Assembly: GCA_031423995.1 (NCBI GenBank)
Contig: JANPGO010000011.1
Span: 1-50,908 of the forward strand
Reading direction: 5' to 3'
DNA: 50,908 bases
From: Candidatus Altimarinota bacterium
Lineage (GTDB): Bacteria; Patescibacteriota; Gracilibacteria; BD1-5; UBA2023
Below, piece after piece: positions 1,064 through 25,679 of this stretch (positions are counted from its first letter, which is position 1; every line of letters starts with the position of its first letter). The notes under the pieces were generated by a model. That model worked only from the letters and a program-made list of their open reading frames with translations, was not told where the DNA came from and did no database searches. The position numbers and the translations under genes were made by a program.

Positions 1064-1130
1064 CCGTCATTCTGAACGGAGTGAAGAATCCAGTCGAGAA
1101 AATGGATTCTGGCATTCGCCAGAATGATAA
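1064..1130. repeat. Short copy of the CCGTCATTCTGAACGGAGTGAAGAATCC palindromic repeat family
   Basis: Its 5' arm is identical to 12449-12477. An internal inverted TCATTCTG...CAGAATGA pair is present. It lies in the intergenic space after the PLD gene. Confidence 0.5.
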
Positions 1131-9309: not shown

Positions 9310-10923
9310 ATGTTCAAAAAATATATTTCCATTGTTCCTGCACTTTTCCTTGTCGGATGCAGTTGGTCATCAGCTCCATCAGACTTCTCATGAATGTACC
9401 GTGCACATGTGACAAAACAACTCGACTCAGTCCATCAAGTAGCTGAGGATATCGGAATCGGGAAGAAATATATGATCGATGGATCAACCAAATTCTGAGC
9501 GAATGTTCCTGGGTATATGAGCGGTATTCTCTCGATGGATTATACTTCCAAGATTGATGGACGAGACATAGAATTCACATGACGAAAATTCCTTCTCGGC
9601 TATGAGGCATTTATTGCATCTGGTTCAATCTCTCTCGATGCGCTCGGAATTACATCAAAATGAGGAGATACCTATTTCTTCTTCAAGGATCTCGCTGAGC
9701 ATAATATGCTCAGTCCTCGAATGCTCGAAGTATTTCAGAAATATAATGCAAAGTGGCTCTCTCTCACCAAGGCAGACATAGAATCTTCGCTCTCTGGAGG
9801 AACTCTCCAGGACGTCCTCTCATACAAACTTTCCGAATCACTCTCTTCGCTTACACTCGATGAGGTGAAAGAGAGATTGAATAAGTACCCACTCTTCCAG
9901 GAAGTGGGCGACCTTGGAAATTCTGGCTCACTCCATCAGTATGCAGTCTCGCTCAATGCTCCAAATATTGTTTCCCTGATTGATGATTTCTCTCTCCGCC
10001 TCACCGGAAGTTGACTCTCTTCAGATGATCGGTCGACACTGACGAAGGATTTTGCATCTGTATCAAGTAGTGGTACAGTGAGTTTTGATCCGAAGGATGC
10101 AAGGTACATCAACCTCGATCTCATGCTCTCATCATCAGATATGTGAACTACACGAATTATGCTCAAGGAGGCAAAAGATGAATTCCAACTCACGCTGAAG
10201 ACAAATGTTACCACTCTTTCTCTTTCTGCAGTGAAGTCTGAGAATGGTGATCAGAATAGCACTCTCTCGCTCAGTCAGGGAGACAAGGAGGTCGCAAAAC
10301 TCGTCGTCCTCTTCAAATACGAAGATGGTCGTATGAACGAACTTGATCTCACTATGAGTGCTCCATCTCAGGGGCTCACGATGAACCTCATAGAGAAGAA
10401 TGCAAAAGATGGATCATTCGAAGGAAATATGAACGCAGGTATAGGAAATGCAACTTGGACAGGAAAAGTTGATCATCGGGCTCTCATGGCGCTCCATCTT
10501 CATGGGGCAGTAGTGGGGACAACTCTCGCTGTCGATCTCGAAGCAAAAAATGGAGATATGATATATGGTCCACTTGTCATGAAGAGTGGAAATACGATTG
10601 ACTTTGCTGCGGATATATGACTTCGTGTCACTCCAGAGCGATTCTCTCTGAGTATCGATACTGCACTCCCATCAGATGGGACTGGGAGTGGTGCCACGGA
10701 ACAAAAGGCACACTTCGATGCTGATATTATCGCAAAACGATCAGGATTCTCAGGTAATGTCGAGACACCAAAAGCTGAAAAGACATTTCGAGAATTCATC
10801 AAGGATATCGATGCGATTGCTCCTGCAGAAGAATCCTTCCAAGAAACTCCCCCTGAAGAGTCACTTTCTTGAACTCCAGGAATGGGATCAGGGACCGTTA
10901 TTCAGGGAACCGTATCGAACTAA
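9310..10923 (+). CDS. Lipoprotein, function unknown (537 aa)
   Basis: Lipobox MFKKYISIVPALFLVGC. Frame 1 joins ORFs 9706..10014 and 10159..10620 through TGAs to TAA 10921. Confidence 0.7.
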
Positions 10924-10933
10924 TCTTCTCTCT

Positions 10934-11059
10934 ATGCGCAAAGCGTTCATCACTATTACTGTCATTGCCCTCCTTCTTTCAATCATCGGAACAGGGGTCC
11001 TTGTCTACATAGATTCACACAGTCCAATACCGTCTGAGTCTTCCGTATCAGGAGAATAA
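10934..11059 (+). CDS. Small single-pass membrane protein (41 aa)
   Basis: MRKAFITITVIALLLSIIGTGVLVY... starts 11 nt after the upstream stop. Confidence 0.4.
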   Translation: MRKAFITITVIALLLSIIGTGVLVYIDSHSPIPSESSVSGE

Positions 11060-11419: not shown

Positions 11420-12427
11420 ATGATCATCACCCCACTCGGACATACAGAATTCCTCGTCGATATCGCGAATAGTGAGTGAGAAAATGTCCGTATCCTCGTC
11501 GACAGTTGGCTCTCGGATTTTGCCATCGGGGATCTCATGGAACGCGCAGTGAAGGTAGAACTTGATCCTGAAAAAATCGCGACCATCGATGCCATCTATA
11601 TCTCGCATGCTCACTCAGATCATCTGGATCCGTATACTCTTGTTTCGATCTACTGACTATCGCAGGCTCACAAGGAGGGGAATTTCCCCCTCTTGATGCT
11701 TCCAGTCACACTGGGGTATCTCAAGCCACTTTTTGCTCAGTATCTGCCGAATGCTCCGATTCATTGGCTCATGAACTATGAGTCCCATACTTTGAACGGG
11801 ATCAAGATTACTGGCTATATGTTCCCACAGTCTTCGATTACCAATGAAGATGACGTCATGATGCTCTCGGTCGACAATGGTCGAGAACTTCTTTTTGCTG
11901 AGATCGATACCCTTCCGGAAGAGGATTCTCTCGATGCCCAGCGCGAACTCTACCGTATCCTCTCGAGAGAGGGATACGAGACGATCTCTTATATCGCGAG
12001 TCGAAATGAACTTCCAGGACAGCTCCCACTCCTTGACCTCCCCATGAAGAAACGCAAATCATTTCGGGACGAATATATTGCTGGACGCAAAGAGGAAATG
12101 TACTTTGCCTATCAGAAATGGGAATACGAGGAATTCGAAAATTTCCCGAATATATTCGAGATCCCCAACCTGGTTCGTGGGTATATCGGGCAGGGAATCG
12201 CCTATCCGAGACAATGCTCGCTCGATTATTCTCACCTCCAAATATTCCCTCTCGAAGAAATCGCTTCGATGGAGTCGGATATCGCACGCGAGTGTGGCTA
12301 TGAATTCCCACAAAAGGCGCTCCTTCCTGGTCGTCAATACAAGATCGAGAAAGCCAGTATTGAAGCAGGAAGAAAAGAATGTCCGATAGGGAAAATAATA
12401 GACAATAAGAAGCAGAAAGGAGATTGA
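11420..12427 (+). CDS. MBL-fold metallo-hydrolase
   Basis: ISHAHSDHLD (HxHxDH motif). ATG 11420 joins ORF 11693..12427 in frame 2 through two TGAs. Confidence 0.8.
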
Positions 12428-12448
12428 ATTCAAGAGATGTCGAGTGAT

Positions 12449-12542
12449 CCGTCATTCTGAACGGAGTGAAGAATCCATTTGTCTGATTCACGGGATCCTT
12501 ACCCACAAGGGGTATACTGACTATCGCAAGCTCAGGATGACG
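12449..12542. repeat. 94-nt TIR element (CCGTCATTCTGA...TCAGGATGACG)
   Basis: Near-perfect terminal inverted repeats. The 5' arm is identical to the copy at 1064. Confidence 0.55.
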
Positions 12543-12743
12543 ATACAAAGAGACAAAAGAGACTCTATGCTTCCTGACCACTTTTTCCTCGTGAACATAC
12601 TTCAGAGAGTATTGAGGCAGCGAAGATTCATATTCTCGAAATACTGAATCATCGATTCCTCCCATACTGGTCAGCTTCTCCCATCGCGAGCCTCCGAGAT
12701 GCACTCCTGAAGAATCGGGATGGGGCATATAGGATATCCTTCT

Positions 12744-12847
12744 CCGTCATTCCTGCGGAGGCAGGAATCCAGGATTCTGGAGGAAGAGATTCCGGGTCAT
12801 TCATCCTTCGGTGTAAACCAACGGAGAACGGAAGCCCGGAATGACGG
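12744..12847. repeat. 104-nt TIR element (CCGTCATTCC...GGAATGACGG)
   Basis: Perfect 10-nt terminal inverted repeats with internal palindromes (CCTGCGGAGGCAGG). Confidence 0.55.
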
Positions 12848-12916
12848 AAGAGAGAAATTATTTTTGAGTATTCTTTTGCTTTCGTCTGATTCAGGGAAGT
12901 TGCGTATTCAGAGGGC

Positions 12917-13162
12917 ATGAGAATCGATGAAGATTATTGGCTCGATGATGTACTTGATTTCCTCGACGGATGACAGGAACTCTATTCGAACTTCTGGCAT
13001 ACCCTCGATCCGAAGCGAATCTACCGGCTCTGGACCTGCCTCGGTGCGAACTATATGAACCATGATCTGGTCGTAAACAAATATCGCCTGCATTTTGAGC
13101 GGGCGATACGGGGAGAGACGGCAGAATCATATGTCACGGCTATTTTTCCTCATCTTTCCTAA
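12917..13162 (+). CDS. Hypothetical small protein (81 aa); strand uncertain
   Basis: The plus-strand frame uses the local codon preferences (CTC, ATC, GAT) and one TGA. An antisense ORF (12908..13093) is also open. Confidence 0.35.
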
Positions 13163-13892: not shown

Positions 13893-15413
13893 ATGCAAAA
13901 ACACCTCCACGTCATCGGTATCGGAGGGATCGGTGTCTCAGCACTGGCTCGATACTATCATCACCTTGGCTATTCGATCTCGGGTTCAGATTGATTAGAT
14001 TCTCCACTGCTTGAGACGCTCAGAAAGGAAGGATTCCAGATCCATATCGGTCATGATGTAGGCAATCTTCCTGAAGATACAGATCTCGTCATATATTCGG
14101 AAGCGATCATCACGAAGCCTGATCTCACTCCAGAAGAGCAGATCTACTCGAATCCTGAACTTGCATGTGCTCGAGATCTTGGCATTCGGCATATTTCCTA
14201 TCCTGTTGCCCTCGGTGAAGTCTTCAATGCGAAGCAAGGAATCGCTATCACTGGTTCGCATGGAAAATCAACGACAACGGCTATGACGGGTATTTTGCTG
14301 ACCTCATCCCCAACCCTTCTCCTGAAGGAGAAGGGAGATTCTGGTTCCTCCTCTCTGAAGGAGAGGGGGTTAGGGGGTGAGGTGGGTGCATCCGTACTCG
14401 TGGGGACACAGGTACCACAGCTTGGAAATTCGAACTTTCACTATGAAGAATCCGAAAATTTCGTGATCGAGGCATGCGAATATAAGCGATCATTCCTCCA
14501 GTATCATCCCTATATCACGGTCATTACGAATATCGACCTCGATCACCTCGACTATTATAAAAACCTCGAGGATTATCTCTCTGCGTTCCAGGCGATCGTC
14601 GACCAGACGAGTGGATATGTCATCATCTCAGCGGATGATGAGAATTCTCTGAAGCTCCAGATCCCAGAAGAAAAGAAGATTGTAGTAGGGGGGTCCGAGA
14701 TCCGATATTCAGCAAAGGTTGAAATGCTTTGTCACTGTGGCACAGAAGTGTCATATGAAGAAAAGACTCTGCCGATTCCATCGATGCACCTCCAGGTACC
14801 AGGCGATCATCTCCTCCATGATGCGCATCTTGCCTATACGGTCGGGCGACTTCTCGGAATGCAGGATGATGTGATCGTGGCGAAGCTCGAATCCTATACA
14901 GGTTCTTGGCGGAGATCGGAGATTGTCGGCACAACGAAACATGGAAATATCGTGATGTCTGACTATGGTCACCATCCCAATGAGATCCGTCCGACACTCC
15001 GAGCAATCCGTGAAAAATATGGAGATAAAAAACTCCTCGTGATCTTCCAGCCACATCAGTATTCTCGAACACGTGAGCTCTTGCATGAATTCGCAACAAG
15101 CTTTTCCGATGCTTCAGAACTCATCATTCCGAATATCTACTTCTCTCGGGATAAGCAGGAAGATGTCGAATGGATGACGACAGAGCGACTCATCTCTGCA
15201 ATAGTATGAACAATGAGCAGTGAACAATGAAAAATGAAGATATCGAGCTCCCCTGATAAGGGGGGAAGGGGGGTTTTCTCAGTCAAAAATGGAAATGGAC
15301 TCGAAAATACTGCGAAGCTCATCCGAGAATATGACGAGAAAAATCCTAATTCTTCTATTATTCTCCTCCTCGGAGCAGGGGATGTGGATAAGCTCAGATA
15401 TGAGATAGTCTAA
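13893..15413 (+). CDS. murC: UDP-N-acetylmuramate--L-alanine ligase
   Basis: HVIGIGGIGVSALA, GSHGKSTTTAM, DYGHHPNEI and GAGDV motifs. Frame 3 joins ATG 13893, ORF 14283..15209 and a TGA-containing tail to TAA 15411. Confidence 0.9.
14305..14390. repeat. Twin-hairpin repeat retained in frame inside murC
   Basis: CCCTTCTCC-TGAA-GGAGAAGGG and CCTCTC-TGAA-GGAGAGG encode ...LLLKEKGDSGSSSLKERGLGGEV... between the P-loop and the next conserved MurC block. Confidence 0.5.
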
Positions 15414-17970: not shown

Positions 17971-19707
17971 ATGTCTACCAACACCCACTTCGCAATCCGT
18001 ATCGCCTGACCTGCTGGACTCGGGATGCACTCCATCATGGATATTATCGCGAATGCATTCGCCTCGCTCGGTCAGCAGATCATCACGGACTCAGAATATC
18101 AGTCGATTATCAAGTGAGGATTGAATTATTATGATGTCCATGTCTGCAGCGAAGCCCCCTATATTACCAAGGCAGTCGATATCCTCATCTCGCTCAATGA
18201 GAAAAATATTACCCCGAATCTCGAGAGCCTCAGGAAGTGAGGATTCCTCATCGCGAACCAGAAATGGATCGAGAAAGTAGAAGTACATTTTCCAGATCTC
18301 AGAAGTGACTATATCGTCATCGATCCGCTCATCGAGGATAAGTATGAGAATACCTACCTGCTCGGGATCCTCGCAGGGTATCTCGGTCTGGATACGACGG
18401 TTTTCGAACCTGCTGTTACCAGAGCTTTTGCGAAGAAAGGTGAGGAAGTGGTTGCGAAAAATATCTGAATTCTGAGAGAGTATGCATGAATTGGCTCCCG
18501 TCATTCCCACGCTTTGCTCGGGACAGGCTCTGAGCTTGCGAAGGATCCAGAGTACCAGAAACCTGGATTCTTCCTATCGTCAGAATGACGGACACCACTC
18601 CAGATCACCTATGGAAATAAGGCGCTCGCCTATGGAGCAATCGCCTCAGAGCTCGAGTTCTTCGCAGCTTATCCGATGACACCTGCCTCGACCGTTCTCT
18701 CCGAGATCGTGAATTCGAAGAAAGTTACCTACCTCCAAGCGGAAGATGAGATTGCTGTTATGAATACTGCACTTGGGGCATCATTCACGGGAAAGCGTTC
18801 TATGGTAGCAACATCTGGCGGAGGATTCGCACTCATGACGGAGGCACTCTCATTCGCAGCACAGGCAGAGTTCCCGATCGTCGCGATCCTCTCACAGCGT
18901 GCAGGACCATCGACAGGAACGCCAACCTATCATGAACAATCAGAGATCAGCTATGCACTCGTTCCGACATTTGGCGGGGGAGATCATGTTGTCCTGATCC
19001 CTTCGACGATGGAAGAAGCGTACTTCATGGGAGGGCAAGCGCTCAATATCGCTCAGAAATATCAGACGACCGTCATCATCCTCACGGATAAGCAGTTCTC
19101 AGAAGGGAAGGTCACCATCACAGAACTGAAACCTGCACCTGTTGACCGAGGAAAGCTCATCACTGATCCTGGAGATGGATTCAAGCGCTATGAGCTCACT
19201 GATGATGGCATATCTCCGTATGTCCGTGTCGGAACTCCGAATGGTGACTTCATCGCGACGAGCTATGAACACGATGAATATGGAGCGACGAGTGAAGAGA
19301 TGGAGATGAAGGTTGCCATGACTGAGAAACGCGCTCGCAAGCTTCAGGATTTCTATGCGAAAGAGAGAATTATGGGATACCGAGTCGTGAATCCGACCGC
19401 AAAGAAGATGATCTTCACATTCTCTCTCACATCCTACACGGCAGAGGCATGGGTACGAGAAAATCCTGAATGGGGAGTCATCATCATCACGTGTCTCAAG
19501 CCACTCGATGTTCGTCTCCGTGAGGTGATCATCGGACTGGATCGGGTTGTCTTCGTCGAGTCGAACTATTCGGGTCAACTCGAGGACTATGTCACGAAGG
19601 AATTCGGACTGAGGTTCATAGATTGACTCGAGATCAGTCATATCAGAAAGTATGATCTGATGCCGTTTTTCTATGAAGATTTTGATATTTTAATCACTGA
19701 GGACTAA
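17971..19707 (+). CDS. korA: 2-oxoacid:ferredoxin oxidoreductase, fused gamma-alpha subunit
   Basis: The N-terminal gamma-type domain joins the alpha domain (GNKALAYGAIASELEFFAAYPMTPAS, ORF 18676..19626) in frame 1. Ends at TAA 19705. Confidence 0.85.
18498..18591. repeat. TIR element (CCGTCATTCC...AGAATGACGG) retained in frame in the korA interdomain linker
   Basis: Same termini and size class as 12449..12542 and 12744..12847. Translated as ...SRHSHALLGTGSELAKDPEYQKPGFFLSSEGR... with no stop codon. Confidence 0.6.
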
Positions 19708-20518: not shown

Positions 20519-20993
20519 AATGTACAATTAACAATGTACAATTAATAATTTCGAAAATATGAAAGAAAATATCTTAAAAGATAAAACTTTTATTTTTGCC
20601 TTAGAAGGAGTTAAGTTTTCACAATTTCTCATATCAGAAAAGAAAGAATTTGTGATTTCTAAACAATTCCTCAGGAGTGGGAATGCTATCTGAGCTCTTG
20701 TTCGGGAGGCTGAATATGCACAAAGTCTCCAGATTTTATATCAAAGTTGAGTATTGCTCTCGAAGAAGCCAATGAAACTGAATACTGGATTGAACTACTA
20801 AATGCTGGAAAATATTTACAAAAAGACGAGTATGAACGACTCCTTTCGTGAAACAAGGAACTCTTAAAATTGCTTATTTCCAGCATTAAAACAGCAAAAG
20901 AAAATCAATAATATTATTGATCATTGATTACAGTATATTAGTTACCTATTGTCCATTGATTGTAAATTATTAATTATTCATTGTACATTGTTA
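20519..20993. mobile_element. Inverted-repeat-flanked A+T-rich cassette
   Basis: TAACAATGTACAATTAATAAT (20529-20549) against its reverse complement at 20973-20993 matches at 20 of 21 positions. AATGTACAATTA is duplicated at the left end. Confidence 0.4.
20559..20911 (+). pseudogene. Four-helix-bundle protein gene (23S rRNA intervening-sequence / Avd-like family) with a 1-nt frameshift
   Basis: The N-terminal frame gives ...QFLRSGNAIGALVREAEYAQS. The C-terminal frame gives PDFISKLSIALEEANETEYWIELL...KTAKENQ*. The frames differ by one nucleotide near 20725-20732. The track antisense ORF 20686..20886 confirms the sequence is contiguous there. Confidence 0.6.
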
Positions 20994-24089: not shown

Positions 24090-25679
24090 CTAGAAAACTT
24101 CGTCGACGTTGAGAGTTCCTATACCAGCATCGAGACGACATTCGACTGTCCAGTCTCATCCGAAAAGTTTCGTGAGTCATTCACAGATAAGATTGCGTAC
24201 TTTTGGCGTATCGACTCGTCCATGATTCCAAGACTTTGAAAAAATGAGTGTCAGTTTCAGTCCATCTGTTTGGAATCGCGCCGTCTTCAGGTCTGTCATG
24301 AGGGGCAGATTGGTCTCACGAATGTGGTTGATTAAGGCAGGAAAAGAGAATGGTTGGGTAGTGGGGTGGTTGGGTAGTGGGGTGGAGGTAGAAGGAGTTT
24401 CGAGTTTTTGTCATTCTGAACTTATTTCAGAATCCAGTTTCTTTGAATCCTTCTGTACTTTTCATGAACCCATTTCCGTACTTTTGTAACCAAAAGTATC
24501 AAAAGTTTCGGGGGGCAAAAAACTCGCTCCTCCTCGCTCTGCTCATCGATTCTCAGTATTCGTCTTCGCTCAAACAGTTTCGCCCCCCGAACCCCCATAA
24601 GATTGTTTATCATCATCTTTCTTTGAGTTTTGCGATACTTTCGTATTTTCTGGTACAGCAATATTATTTTTATTTCCTCGCTTCACGATCTTCAGAAAGG
24701 TTATCTCAATGAGCATCATCCCATCAGGAATGGTACGGATCTTCGAGTGACCTTCCATGATGAACGTGAAGATGGAATGATACTCTCAGAAACGAGGATC
24801 ATCGATGTATTCGAACAGGAGGTCACGTAGACGATAGAGTATCTGCTCGAAAAGTCCACGAGCATCGATATGTCCACTTCGGAGCGTATCGAGGATTTTG
24901 AGAATTTTTGGTACGTCTTCGAGTCGAAATGCCTCAATAATAGTGTCCACCAGTGCATCATCGACGAGTGCGAGTGTATAGCGAACATGGTCTGATCGGA
25001 CTTCGCGATCGATGATATTCTGCTCGAGGAGCGTGAGCGCATCTCGGAGTCATCCTCGAGCAGCTTTCGCGATGATTCTCAATGCTTCGTCTTCTACAGT
25101 GATTCCCTCAGTTTGGGCAATATACTGCAGTCGAGCAATGATATCTGTTTCAGTGATCTTTCGGAAGTCGAATCTGAGCGATCTCGATCGTATTGTCTCG
25201 GGAACTTTCTCGATCTCCGTGGTGGCGAGGATGAACTTCACATGACTTGGTGGTTCTTCGAGGATCTTCAGGAGGGCATTGAAGGCTCCAGTCGAGAGCA
25301 TATGGACTTCATCGATGATATAGACTTTGTAGGTTCATTGATTGGGTTCGAATCGCGCCTTCTCGATGAGTTCACGGACGTTCTCGACGCCATTGTTCGA
25401 GGCCCCATCGATCTCGATACAGTCGAGCATCATCTCCTGATCGAAGGCGATACAGTTCGTACACTGATGGCAGGGATTTCCATTTTGGAGGTTCATACAA
25501 TTCACTCCCTCTGCGAGGATGCGAGCACTCGTCGTTTTTCCGGTTCCGCGTGAACCATGGAGGAGATAGGCATGTCCGACACGTCCGGTTTTGAGGCTAT
25601 TTCTGAGAATCGTTGTGATGTAGTCTTGCCCGATGACAGAGTCCCAGTCATGAGGTCGGTAGGTCGTATAGAGTGACAC
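24090..25679 (-). CDS. dnaX: DNA polymerase III subunit gamma/tau
   Basis: [21 protein letters not shown], a Cys cluster, IIDEVHMLS and SRSLRF motifs. The frame was followed through TGAs to TAG 24090 (529 aa). Confidence 0.85.

What the first reader, a model, noticed from the sequence alone, without database searches (positions are those of the whole stretch)
18498..18591. A 94-nt terminal-inverted-repeat element is retained in frame inside korA, like a Rickettsia palindromic element
The segment starts CCGTCATTCC and ends AGAATGACGG, the same termini and size class as the intergenic copies at 12449-12542 and 12744-12847. A shorter relative lies at 1064-1130. It sits exactly in the linker between the gamma-type and alpha domains of the fused oxidoreductase. 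It is translated without a stop as about 31 extra residues (SRHSHALLGTGSELAKDPEYQKPGFFLSSEGR). In-frame survival of a palindromic repeat in an essential metabolic gene parallels the RPEs of Rickettsia. I am not aware of this being described for recoded candidate-phyla bacteria.
Basis: partly seen in the sequence, partly recalled or inferred. Interest (0 to 1): 0.65.

Follow-up and report, generated by a model that had tools for sequence, protein, structure and literature searches.

The report
Palindromic repeat translated inside korA
A small hairpin-forming repeat sits in frame in a flexible linker of a core metabolic enzyme of a Gracilibacteria-type bacterium that reads TGA as glycine. Related copies sit in frame in at least two other genes nearby, as known for the palindromic elements of Rickettsia but not found described for this group.

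Summary
Window 18498-18591 is a 94-nt element (CCGTCATTCC...AGAATGACGG). It lies in frame in korA (17971-19707, 578 aa under code 25), between the POR and POR_N domains.

A profile built from the other three copies finds it at E=5.6e-7. It is two inverted hairpin units (CGTC-ATTCY-loop-RGAAT-CCAG) around a spacer, and the unit stem covaries.

One correction: the copies at 12449-12542 and 12744-12847 are not intergenic. Under code 25 both lie in frame in an MBL-fold gene (11420-13162). A fifth unit (24410-24437) lies in frame in dnaX. So four of five family loci here are inside genes, each read through 1-3 TGA (Gly) codons.

Orthologues show the usual linker is 51-63 nt, so the net gain is about 45 nt, not 94. 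The same sites hold other variants, an inverted copy, remnants or nothing in relatives. The element is far better conserved than synonymous sites of its host gene (22/24 against 58% identical).

The hairpin unit is near-identical to repeats on a Rickettsia endosymbiont plasmid and to Neisseria dRS3.

Best reading: a selfish element like the Rickettsia palindromic elements (RPEs), built like a REPIN (REP doublet), tolerated in permissive loops. It is a new member of a known kind. The mobilising enzyme is unknown.

The parts
17971..19707 (+). korA: fused gamma (POR) plus alpha (POR_N) subunit of a 2-oxoacid:ferredoxin oxidoreductase. 578 aa under code 25, with 7 in-frame TGA read as Gly.
   Evidence: ORF under table 25. 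Pfam POR 16-169 and POR_N 222-449; TIGR03710 E=3e-131. End-to-end homologues in Gracilibacteria. Closest solved structure 6N2N_A.
18498..18591 (-). The 94-nt element of the finding: a doublet of inverted hairpin units, in frame in korA (last base of codon 176 through codon 207). Its family orientation is the minus strand.
   Evidence: Leave-one-out nhmmer E=5.6e-7.
18498..18507 (+). Left terminal inverted repeat, CCGTCATTCC.
18505..18528 (+). 24-nt nested in-frame insertion (TCCCACGCTTTGCTCGGGACAGGC) that interrupts the left hairpin unit. It is absent from the orthologous copy in L006, where the unit GTCATCCTGAGCTTGCGAAGGATCCAG is intact.
   Evidence: Pairwise alignment. L006 unit listed.
18563..18589 (-). 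Right hairpin unit, GTCATTCTGACGATAGGAAGAATCCAG, read on the minus strand. It includes the right terminal repeat and the in-frame TGA at 18586-18588.
11420..13162 (+). MBL-fold (Lactamase_B_2) gene, 580 aa under code 25, that hosts two further copies.
   Evidence: Continuous ORF. Collinear orthologues in L007, L008, L011, L015, L077 and L001. Pfam PF12706.
12449..12542 (+). Family copy in frame in the MBL-fold gene (site 1; PSFGTEGRIHLSDSRDPYPQGVYGLSQAQDDD), read through three TGA codons. Absent from L008, L011 and L077.
12744..12847 (+). Family copy in frame in the MBL-fold gene (site 2; SVIPAEAGIQ...SPEGR), read through one TGA codon. Absent from L011 and L077. An inverted variant occupies the same site in L008.
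1064..1130 (+). Short (67-nt) family copy, the only intergenic one. It lies 3' of a PLD-like gene that ends near 1038.
24410..24437 (+). Single hairpin unit, GTCATTCTGAACTTATTTCAGAATCCAG. It lies in frame in the variable linker of dnaX, which is on the minus strand (about 24090-25679; [13 protein letters not shown]). Shared by L007 and L008; absent from L012, L015, L077 and L090.

Best explanation
The segment is a non-autonomous, selfish palindromic repeat.

Anatomy: its building block is a roughly 27-nt hairpin with conserved single-stranded flanks (CGTC-ATTCY-variable stem and loop-RGAAT-CCAG). The 94-nt element is two such units in inverted orientation around a short spacer, like a REPIN (a doublet of REP hairpins) or a Neisseria dRS3-RS-dRS3 unit.

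Spread: copies reach unlinked sites. I infer this happens through a hairpin-recognising enzyme supplied in trans, or through terminus-bounded recombination with other copies. This step is not shown.

Survival: copies inside genes persist only where two conditions hold. The total length change must keep the reading frame, and the site must be a permissive surface loop or interdomain linker. In korA that site is the linker between domain III (gamma) and domain I (alpha). The element is then translated as a disordered loop of about 32 residues, with little effect on the enzyme.

Role of the genetic code: reassignment of TGA to glycine helps. Every in-gene copy in this window is read in a frame that holds TGA. 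The elements are open in 4-5 of 6 frames under code 25, against 2 of 6 under the standard code.

Shown: family membership, hairpin covariation, in-frame position in three genes, absence from some orthologues, and a disordered model.

Inferred: mobility, neutrality, actual translation, and the identity of the enzyme.
For: Family and structure:
- Alignment of copies and leave-one-out profile, E=5.6e-7.
- Folds with z of -3.5 to -4.9 for four of the five folds; the copy at 12449 gave only z=-1.5.
- In the unit stem, 5 of 8 pairs have compensatory changes. The covariation score is 0.40 against 0.14 in shuffles (0 of 500 reach it), and it collapses when the 3' partners are slid.

Insertion at a permissive site:
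- The korA linker is 51-63 nt in most Gracilibacteria, but 108 nt here. It is 84 nt in L006 (same element), 102 nt in L008 (the element at the same junctions) and 129 nt in L005/L010 (a different palindrome). All lengths are multiples of 3.
- In the AF2 model of the L008 protein the insert has pLDDT 47-49 and no secondary structure, with pTM 0.90 overall.

More genes:
- Two copies lie in frame in the MBL-fold gene, with empty sites in L011 and L077.
- One unit lies in frame in dnaX.
- In 1.54 Mb of related loci, at least 12 of 38 element loci lie in frame between conserved halves of one coding sequence.

Genetic code: frames open, and TGA in the frames actually used.

Activity or turnover:
- The element is 64/70 identical between the window and L006 (third codon positions 22/24), against 58-59% at host third positions.
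- It is 68/71 identical between the window and L001 at MBL site 2, against 78% for the host gene, p=5e-5.
- The immediate flanks are not elevated (about 70%; my count on the alignment printed).
- The same sites carry different unit types or an inverted copy in L008.

Precedent: RPEs inserted in frame in Rickettsia genes, with gmk shown to be translated and active (PMC2229807, PMC10969869).
Against: - No target-site duplication and no TA termini are visible, so classical cut-and-paste MITE behaviour is not supported.
- No transposase was identified. Only some window ORFs were scanned.
- The korA event is not a clean insertion: about 51 nt of the 63-nt type linker is missing.
- The element-bearing state occurs in two separate korA clades, with 63-nt linker lineages between them on a neighbour-joining tree. 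Simple single-insertion descent therefore does not fit. Reinsertion, replacement or recombination must be invoked.
- The strong nucleotide conservation of the element could also mean a host-level function.
- Translation of the insert is not demonstrated.
- Under code 25 a random 94-mer is already open in 3.9 of 6 frames. Lack of a stop alone is weak evidence; the argument rests on frame preservation between conserved flanks.
Confidence: 0.7

Rival explanations
1. Cassette exchange rather than transposition. [quoted passage not shown] Resident elements would then be repeatedly replaced or inverted in place by other family members. This would keep them young and explain the same-site recurrence. 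It refines the main explanation rather than replacing it.
For: - High identity stops exactly at the element boundaries, while the flanks sit at about 70% (and my count on its alignment).
- L008 carries an inverted arrangement (unit order B..A' instead of A..B') at MBL site 2.
- In korA, L008 carries different unit types at identical junctions (GAATGACGG|ACACCA).
- Element-bearing lineages are interleaved with 63-nt linker lineages.
- Bentley et al. proposed dRS3 as recombinase sites, and Nf phage integrates into dRS3 (PMC1797815).
Against: - No recombinase was identified.
- The termini are only 9-10 nt.
- The neighbour-joining tree has short internal branches and may be wrong.
- Strong purifying selection on the hairpins would give the same conservation pattern.
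- Independent insertions at a preferred target would give the same recurrence.
Confidence: 0.25
2. The element has been co-opted by the host. Its RNA or DNA hairpins could serve a function at the domain boundary, for example translational pausing for co-translational folding, mRNA processing or stability. Alternatively the peptide could be a functional linker.
For: - Nucleotide conservation is far above host synonymous sites.
- The predicted structure is stable.
- The position is exactly at a domain boundary.
- It is retained in at least three lineages.
Against: - Close relatives do without it. L009, L011, L012 and L077 have a plain 63-nt linker. L001 and L005/L010 have unrelated sequence at the same place.
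- The peptide differs completely between the window and L008, although the DNA termini are the same.
- The same units occur in unrelated genes and in intergenic DNA.
- The insert is modelled as disordered.
Confidence: 0.1
3. The segment is an intervening sequence removed from the transcript, or it separates two independently translated proteins (gamma and alpha), so it is not part of KorA.
For: - It folds into a compact hairpin structure.
- It lies between two domains that are separate subunits in other oxidoreductases (one search lists separate gamma and alpha families).
Against: - The reading frame across the segment is preserved in every orthologue and variant, with all linker lengths multiples of 3 and no TAA or TAG.
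- Nested additions of 24 nt (korA) and of 33 and 45 nt (MBL site 2) also keep the frame. That would be unnecessary if the segment were removed.
- There is no start codon with a ribosome-binding context at the alpha-domain boundary (read directly).
- No Rfam family matches it.
- No bacterial mechanism is known that excises a roughly 90-nt hairpin from mRNA and religates it (established knowledge).
Confidence: 0.03
4. It is only the ancestral, fast-evolving linker, and the resemblance to other loci is chance or low complexity.
For: The linker is hypervariable in length and sequence across orthologues.
Against: - The leave-one-out profile hit has E=5.6e-7.
- Identical 29-mers occur at 1064 and 12449.
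- Shared terminal repeats are enriched about 15-fold.
- 56 units were found in related loci, against about 0.08 per 51 kb in shuffles.
Confidence: 0.02

Closest known systems
Rickettsia palindromic elements (RPEs; Ogata et al. 2000, as reviewed in PMC2229807 and PMC10969869)
   Same: - A dispersed palindromic repeat of roughly 100 nt with short terminal inverted repeats.
- Open reading frames across the element.
- Found fused in frame inside conserved housekeeping genes at positions compatible with the fold.
- Absent from orthologues.
- No clear target-site duplication.
- A doublet with the same termini and an almost identical hairpin (GTCATTCCTGCGTAGGCAGGAATC) occurs three times on a Rickettsia endosymbiont plasmid.
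   Different: - The host is a Gracilibacteria-type candidate-phylum bacterium that uses code 25.
- The frames used contain TGA, which would be a stop in Rickettsia.
- The element is shorter (67-104 nt against 105-150 nt) and is visibly built from two REP-like units.
- Homology to a named RPE family could not be tested.
- Translation has not been shown here, whereas it was shown for R. conorii gmk.
Neisseria dRS3 repeats and NIMEs (dRS3-RS-dRS3; PMC1797815)
   Same: - The hairpin unit has the dRS3 format: a 6-bp inverted repeat ATTCCY/RGGAAT around about 8 variable bases.
- It shares the same outer flanks (CGTCATTCC...GGAATCCAG). Compare window 12745-12773 with N. gonorrhoeae CGTCATTCCCGCGAAAGCGGGAATCCAGG.
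- Units are arranged as inverted pairs around a spacer.
   Different: - NIMEs are intergenic arrays, while these copies are mostly single doublets inside coding sequences.
- The ATTCTGA subfamily was seen here only in Gracilibacteria loci.
- No filamentous phage or its recombinase was seen.
REPINs
   Same: - A short hairpin with conserved flanks and a covarying stem.
- Two units in inverted orientation form the mobile-looking entity.
- Singletons also occur.
   Different: - REPs and REPINs are extragenic by definition, while four of five loci here are intragenic.
- No RAYT gene was found or searched for genome-wide.
- The conserved flanking motif differs from the GTAG-type REP head.
In-frame bacterial MITEs (107-bp Correia element, ERIC, YPAL, Coxiella QMITE2; PMC2229807, PMC5896051)
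   Same: Small stem-loop repeats with open frames that are occasionally fused to host ORFs.
   Different: - Those elements mostly have TA termini and target-site duplications.
- They mostly extend gene ends or create new small ORFs, rather than sitting inside conserved enzymes.

Membership tests
Rickettsia palindromic elements (RPE-like in-frame palindromic repeats) | Dispersed repeat of roughly 100-150 nt with terminal inverted repeats, predicted to form a long stem-loop. | tested here: met
   94 nt with 9-10-nt terminal repeats. Fold -39.4 kcal/mol, z=-4.0. Four doublets plus one unit in 51 kb. It is somewhat shorter than RPEs.
Rickettsia palindromic elements (RPE-like in-frame palindromic repeats) | Inserted in frame inside conserved protein-coding genes and absent from orthologues. 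| tested here: met
   korA, the MBL-fold gene at two sites and dnaX. Empty sites occur in L009, L011, L012 and L077.
Rickettsia palindromic elements (RPE-like in-frame palindromic repeats) | The insertion site is compatible with the protein fold (surface or linker). | tested here: met
   It lies between Pfam POR and POR_N. In the AF2 model of the element-bearing L008 orthologue the insert is a coil with pLDDT 47-49, and pTM is 0.90. This is the model of an orthologue, not of the window protein.
Rickettsia palindromic elements (RPE-like in-frame palindromic repeats) | Sequence homology to one of the named RPE families of Rickettsia. | not testable with these tools
   RPE consensus sequences were not on hand (PMC186582 is not held). 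A related doublet exists on a Rickettsia endosymbiont plasmid, but it was not shown to be a named RPE.
Rickettsia palindromic elements (RPE-like in-frame palindromic repeats) | The insert is translated and the host protein stays functional. | not testable with these tools
   This needs proteomics or enzymology. Only frame preservation supports it.
Classical MITE | Terminal inverted repeats. | tested here: met
   CCGTCATTC / GAATGACGG.
Classical MITE | Target-site duplication, often with TA at the termini. | tested here: not met
   The flanks of the window copies and of the L008 copy show no direct repeat and no TA.
Classical MITE | A related autonomous insertion sequence with the same terminal repeats. 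| not tested
   Only 51 kb of this genome is available. None was seen among the ORFs scanned.
REP / REPIN | A short hairpin with conserved flanks, whose stem is kept by compensatory change. | tested here: met
   In 22 units, 5 of 8 pairs have changes on both sides. The covariation score is 0.40 against 0.14 in shuffles, with 0 of 500 reaching it.
REP / REPIN | Doublets of units in inverted orientation. | tested here: met
REP / REPIN | Extragenic location. | tested here: not met
   Four of five loci in the window are inside coding sequences.
REP / REPIN | A cognate RAYT (Y1 transposase) gene in the genome, flanked by REPs. | not tested
   No genome-wide search was possible.
Neisseria dRS3 / NIME | A 20-bp unit, ATTCCC-N8-GGGAAT. 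| tested here: met
   Window 12749-12768 is ATTCCT-GCGGAGGC-AGGAAT, which differs from the strict consensus at one base of each arm (T for C, A for G). blastn hits to N. gonorrhoeae repeats are individually weak (E=0.08) but occur at 7 places in one record. The definition is taken from PMC1797815.
Neisseria dRS3 / NIME | Intergenic arrays of dRS3 units separated by RS elements. | tested here: not met
   Here they are single doublets, mostly intragenic.

The most novel reading that the evidence does not exclude
dRS3-type hairpins would be recombination cassettes shared across distant phyla (Gracilibacteria, Rickettsia, Neisseria). In Gracilibacteria they would be inserted, swapped, inverted and expanded in place inside coding loops, acting as a built-in generator of in-frame loop variation in housekeeping proteins. 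The reassignment of TGA to glycine would have opened coding sequence to this invasion by removing the stop codon that these elements carry in their termini.
Probability: 0.15. Interest if true: 0.75.

Novelty: new member of a known kind. Interest (0 to 1): 0.5.

Why it matters
- In-frame palindromic repeats in essential genes have been treated mainly as a Rickettsia speciality. Finding the same behaviour in a code-25 candidate-phylum bacterium, with a hairpin unit almost identical to one on a Rickettsia endosymbiont plasmid and to Neisseria dRS3, points to a widespread element type whose mobilising enzyme is still unknown.
- It gives a concrete case where a genetic-code change alters which selfish insertions a proteome can tolerate.
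- It has a practical consequence for annotation. Under table 11 these copies look intergenic and the genes look split. Under code 25, element-derived peptides such as SVIPAEAGIQ become part of housekeeping proteins.

Tried and rejected
- **Rfam:** nothing at gathering threshold in the whole window. Only a chance snoRNA hit beside the element at E=0.33.
- **Phage collection:** no match.
- **Sites 30490 and 30565:** these one-mismatch matches to the terminal repeat face outward and were judged chance.
- **Full-text search for the terminal octamers:** only primer noise came back.
- **Coxiella QMITE paper:** it gives no sequences, so a link to QMITE2 could not be tested.
- **Ogata 2002:** the paper is not held.
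- **Structure prediction of the window's own KorA:** The L008 orthologue P0032 was modelled instead.
- **The search for related loci with a DNA reference:** failed on the in-frame TGA codons. The metagenome scan then gave only four close relatives.
- **First automated test of whether a copy is inside a gene:** too loose. The stricter one gives a lower bound only, and its strand labels are unreliable because antisense frames are also open under code 25.
- **Preference for TGA-containing frames:** considered and dropped. About 0.2 probability by chance (my estimate), so not significant.
- **Greedy ORF map under code 25:** it picks many spurious frames and was not used beyond the genes checked by homology.
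Full report
**1. The observation**

Window 18498-18591 reads CCGTCATTCC...AGAATGACGG, 94 nt, as described.

The window cannot be read with the standard bacterial code: table 11 shatters every gene. With TGA as a sense codon, korA is a single ORF, 17971-19707, 578 aa, with seven in-frame TGA codons. Two of these (codons 13 and 49) align with conserved glycines of the solved homologue 6N2N_A. All close homologues come from Candidatus Gracilibacteria. Code 25 therefore applies.

Pfam finds POR (the gamma-type domain) at residues 16-169 and POR_N (alpha) at 222-449. NCBIfam TIGR03710 covers residues 7-565. The element spans the last base of codon 176 through codon 207. It is read as S-RHSHALLGTGSELAKDPEYQKPGFFLSSEGR, including one TGA (Gly206).

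**2. It is a repeat, not chance**

- The 9-mer CCGTCATTC occurs six times on the two strands, where about 0.4 is expected (my arithmetic).
- The copies at 12449-12542, 12744-12847 and 1064-1130 align with the reverse complement of the korA copy. They share the termini and an internal GAATCCAGG...CTGG motif.
- A profile built from the other three copies alone finds the korA copy at E=5.6e-7.
- Four of the five folds beat shuffled sequence with z between -3.5 and -4.9. The copy at 12449 gave only z=-1.5.
- No Rfam family matches.

**3. Anatomy**

The building block is a hairpin of about 27 nt, CGTC-ATTCY-(variable stem and loop)-RGAAT-CCAG. The full element is two such units in inverted orientation around a short spacer. 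Single units also occur.

Across 22 units from the window, related loci and three proteobacteria, 5 of 8 stem pairs show changes on both sides. The covariation score is 0.40 against 0.14 in shuffles, with 0 of 500 shuffles reaching it. It collapses when the 3' partners are slid. Conserved single-stranded flanks with a covarying stem suggest a protein-recognised hairpin; that reading is an inference.

In the korA copy the left unit is interrupted by 24 nt (18505-18528). These are absent from the orthologous copy in L006, where the unit is intact.

**4. A correction that strengthens the case**

Under code 25 an MBL-fold (Lactamase_B_2) ORF runs from 11420 to 13162 through both copies. Collinear orthologues exist in L007, L008, L011, L015, L077 and L001.
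- L011 and L077 lack both inserts.
- L008 lacks the first.

A fifth unit, 24410-24437, lies in frame on the minus strand in the variable linker of dnaX. It is shared by L007 and L008 and absent from four other orthologues. Only the short copy at 1064-1130 is intergenic.

An automated test gives a lower bound for the wider clade. In 1.54 Mb of Gracilibacteria and SR1 loci, at least 12 of 38 element loci sit in frame between conserved halves of one coding sequence. All 12 are in the clade nearest the window.

**5. Comparison of korA orthologues**

| Linker state | Loci | Length (nt) |
|---|---|---|
| Typical Gracilibacteria linker | most loci | 51-63 |
| Element | window | 108 |
| Same element without the 24-nt nested piece | L006 | 84 |
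| Element with the same terminal repeats at the same junctions but different internal units | L008 | 102 |
| Remnants | L007, L018, L092 | 60-84 |
| A different palindromic element | L005/L010 | 129 |
| Triple tandem 10-mers on both sides | L001-L004 | 84 |

All lengths are multiples of 3.

Relative to the 63-nt type (L009, L011, L012, L077, L090, L091) the window has lost about 51 nt and gained 96 nt, a net +45 nt. It is therefore not a clean insertion.

On a neighbour-joining tree of KorA without the linker, element-bearing alleles fall in two separate clades, with 63-nt lineages between them. The tree's short internal branches call for caution.

**6. Signs of turnover or constraint**

- Between the window and L006 the element is 64/70 identical, and 22/24 at third codon positions. 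Host third positions are 58-59% identical.
- At MBL site 2 the window and L001 share 68/71, against 78% for the host gene (p=5e-5). Each carries a different nested insertion of 33 or 45 nt in a hairpin loop.
- The immediate flanks are at ordinary divergence, about 70% by my count on the alignment printed.
- At MBL site 2 the L008 copy has the reverse unit order.

Either the hairpins are under strong nucleotide-level constraint, or resident copies are renewed by reinsertion, replacement or conversion bounded by the termini.

**7. The genetic code**

The elements are open in 4-5 of 6 frames under code 25, but only 2 of 6 under code 11. Random 94-mers of this window give 3.9 and 1.9. The frames actually used in korA, at both MBL sites and in dnaX contain one to three TGA codons, so these particular insertions would truncate the proteins in a standard-code host.

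This is a dependence, not a demonstrated preference. By my estimate the chance that all the used frames hold TGA is about 0.2. Because frames are so often open under code 25, the absence of a stop is weak evidence on its own. The argument for translation rests on frame preservation between conserved flanks.

**8. Protein context**

The window's own translation could not be submitted for modelling. I modelled the L008 orthologue P0032, which carries the element at the same site. The model has pTM 0.90 and mean pLDDT 87.6. The insert (about residues 181-200) has pLDDT 47-49 and no secondary structure, between helix 156-175 and strand 207-210. This fits a tolerated surface loop.

**9. Relatives elsewhere**

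blastn of the copy at 12744 against plasmid records finds the first hairpin in Neisseria gonorrhoeae, Photobacterium, Azospirillum, Sphingobium and a Rickettsia endosymbiont. Each hit is weak (best E=0.08), but several records hold multiple copies.

- The 19-kb Rickettsia plasmid holds three 82-nt doublets, GTCATTCCTGCGTAGGCAGGAATC...GGAATGAC. These have the same architecture and a hairpin one base different from window 12746-12772.
- The Neisseria hits are dRS3-RS-dRS3 units (definition in PMC1797815).

**10. Comparison with known kinds**

The behaviour matches Rickettsia palindromic elements: dispersed palindromes fused in frame into conserved genes, tolerated by the fold, and translated in the one tested case (PMC2229807, PMC10969869).

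The architecture resembles REPINs and NIMEs. It fails the classical MITE criteria of target-site duplication and TA termini. It also fails the extragenic criterion of REPs and NIMEs.

No description for Gracilibacteria was found in the held library.

I file it as a new member of a known kind. The mobilising enzyme and actual translation remain untested.

Noticed in passing
window 14307-14387 and 15222-15293 (inside murC, 13893-15413): murC carries other GC-rich palindromic in-frame inserts that are absent from most orthologues. The first has two CTCC-TGAA-GGAG hairpins and is read SPTLLLKEKGDSGSSSLKERGLGGEVG. The second is GCTCCCCTGATAAGGGGGGA. L001, L010 and L018 carry different inserts at the same or other murC sites. 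In-frame palindromes therefore look general in this clade.
   Followed up: partly
window about 24468-24500 (dnaX linker, minus strand); L018 about 2160-2200 and 10920-10960: A second conserved hairpin, GTACTTTTGTAACCAAAAGTATCAAAAG, follows the hairpin unit in dnaX. The same motif follows single units at two unlinked places in L018. This suggests another composite element type.
   Followed up: no
L001-L004 korA linker (L001 5956-6039): In the closest relatives (about 85% nt identity) the korA linker is built from three tandem copies of a 10-mer on each side, ATTGGCAGTG and CTACCAAAAT. These 10-mers extend the conserved flanking codons. It is an unexplained, frame-preserving duplication pattern.
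   Followed up: no
L005 2313-2441 and L010 3441-3569 (korA linker); L018 about 6941 (murC): A different palindromic element (ends GGGAAG..CTCTTTTGAAAGAGG and CCCCTTTCAAAAGGAGCTTCCC) fills the korA linker in L005 and L010. Its right end recurs in murC of L018. The same permissive site therefore accepts unrelated repeat families.
   Followed up: partly
window 20559-20801: A short ORF with weak similarity to 23S rRNA intervening-sequence protein (PF05635, E=2e-4, below the Pfam cut-off) lies just after korB. The same family is called next to korA or korB in L003, L005 and L008.
   Followed up: no
L011 3649-3731: The MBL-fold gene of L011 has its own doublet, with ATCGC and ATTGC stems, at a third site near the N-terminus. 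It is read ...CHREEGSDPGQ... and is absent from the window and the other orthologues.
   Followed up: partly
L112 (plasmid CP084575.1) 7868-7950, 8317-8398, 8676-8757: Three 82-nt hairpin doublets of the same superfamily lie on a plasmid of a Rickettsia endosymbiont of Culicoides. They sit next to, and slightly overlap the end of, an IS256-family transposase gene.
   Followed up: partly
all Gracilibacteria and SR1 loci (L001-L108): The pattern GTCAT-stem-loop-stem-ATCYAG defines a large superfamily with many stem variants (ATTCC, ATTCT, ATTGC, ATCGC, ATCCT, ATTATCCGG, ATTGTCGGG). It gives 56 units at 38 loci in 1.54 Mb, and L011 alone has 8 units in 21.7 kb.
   Followed up: partly
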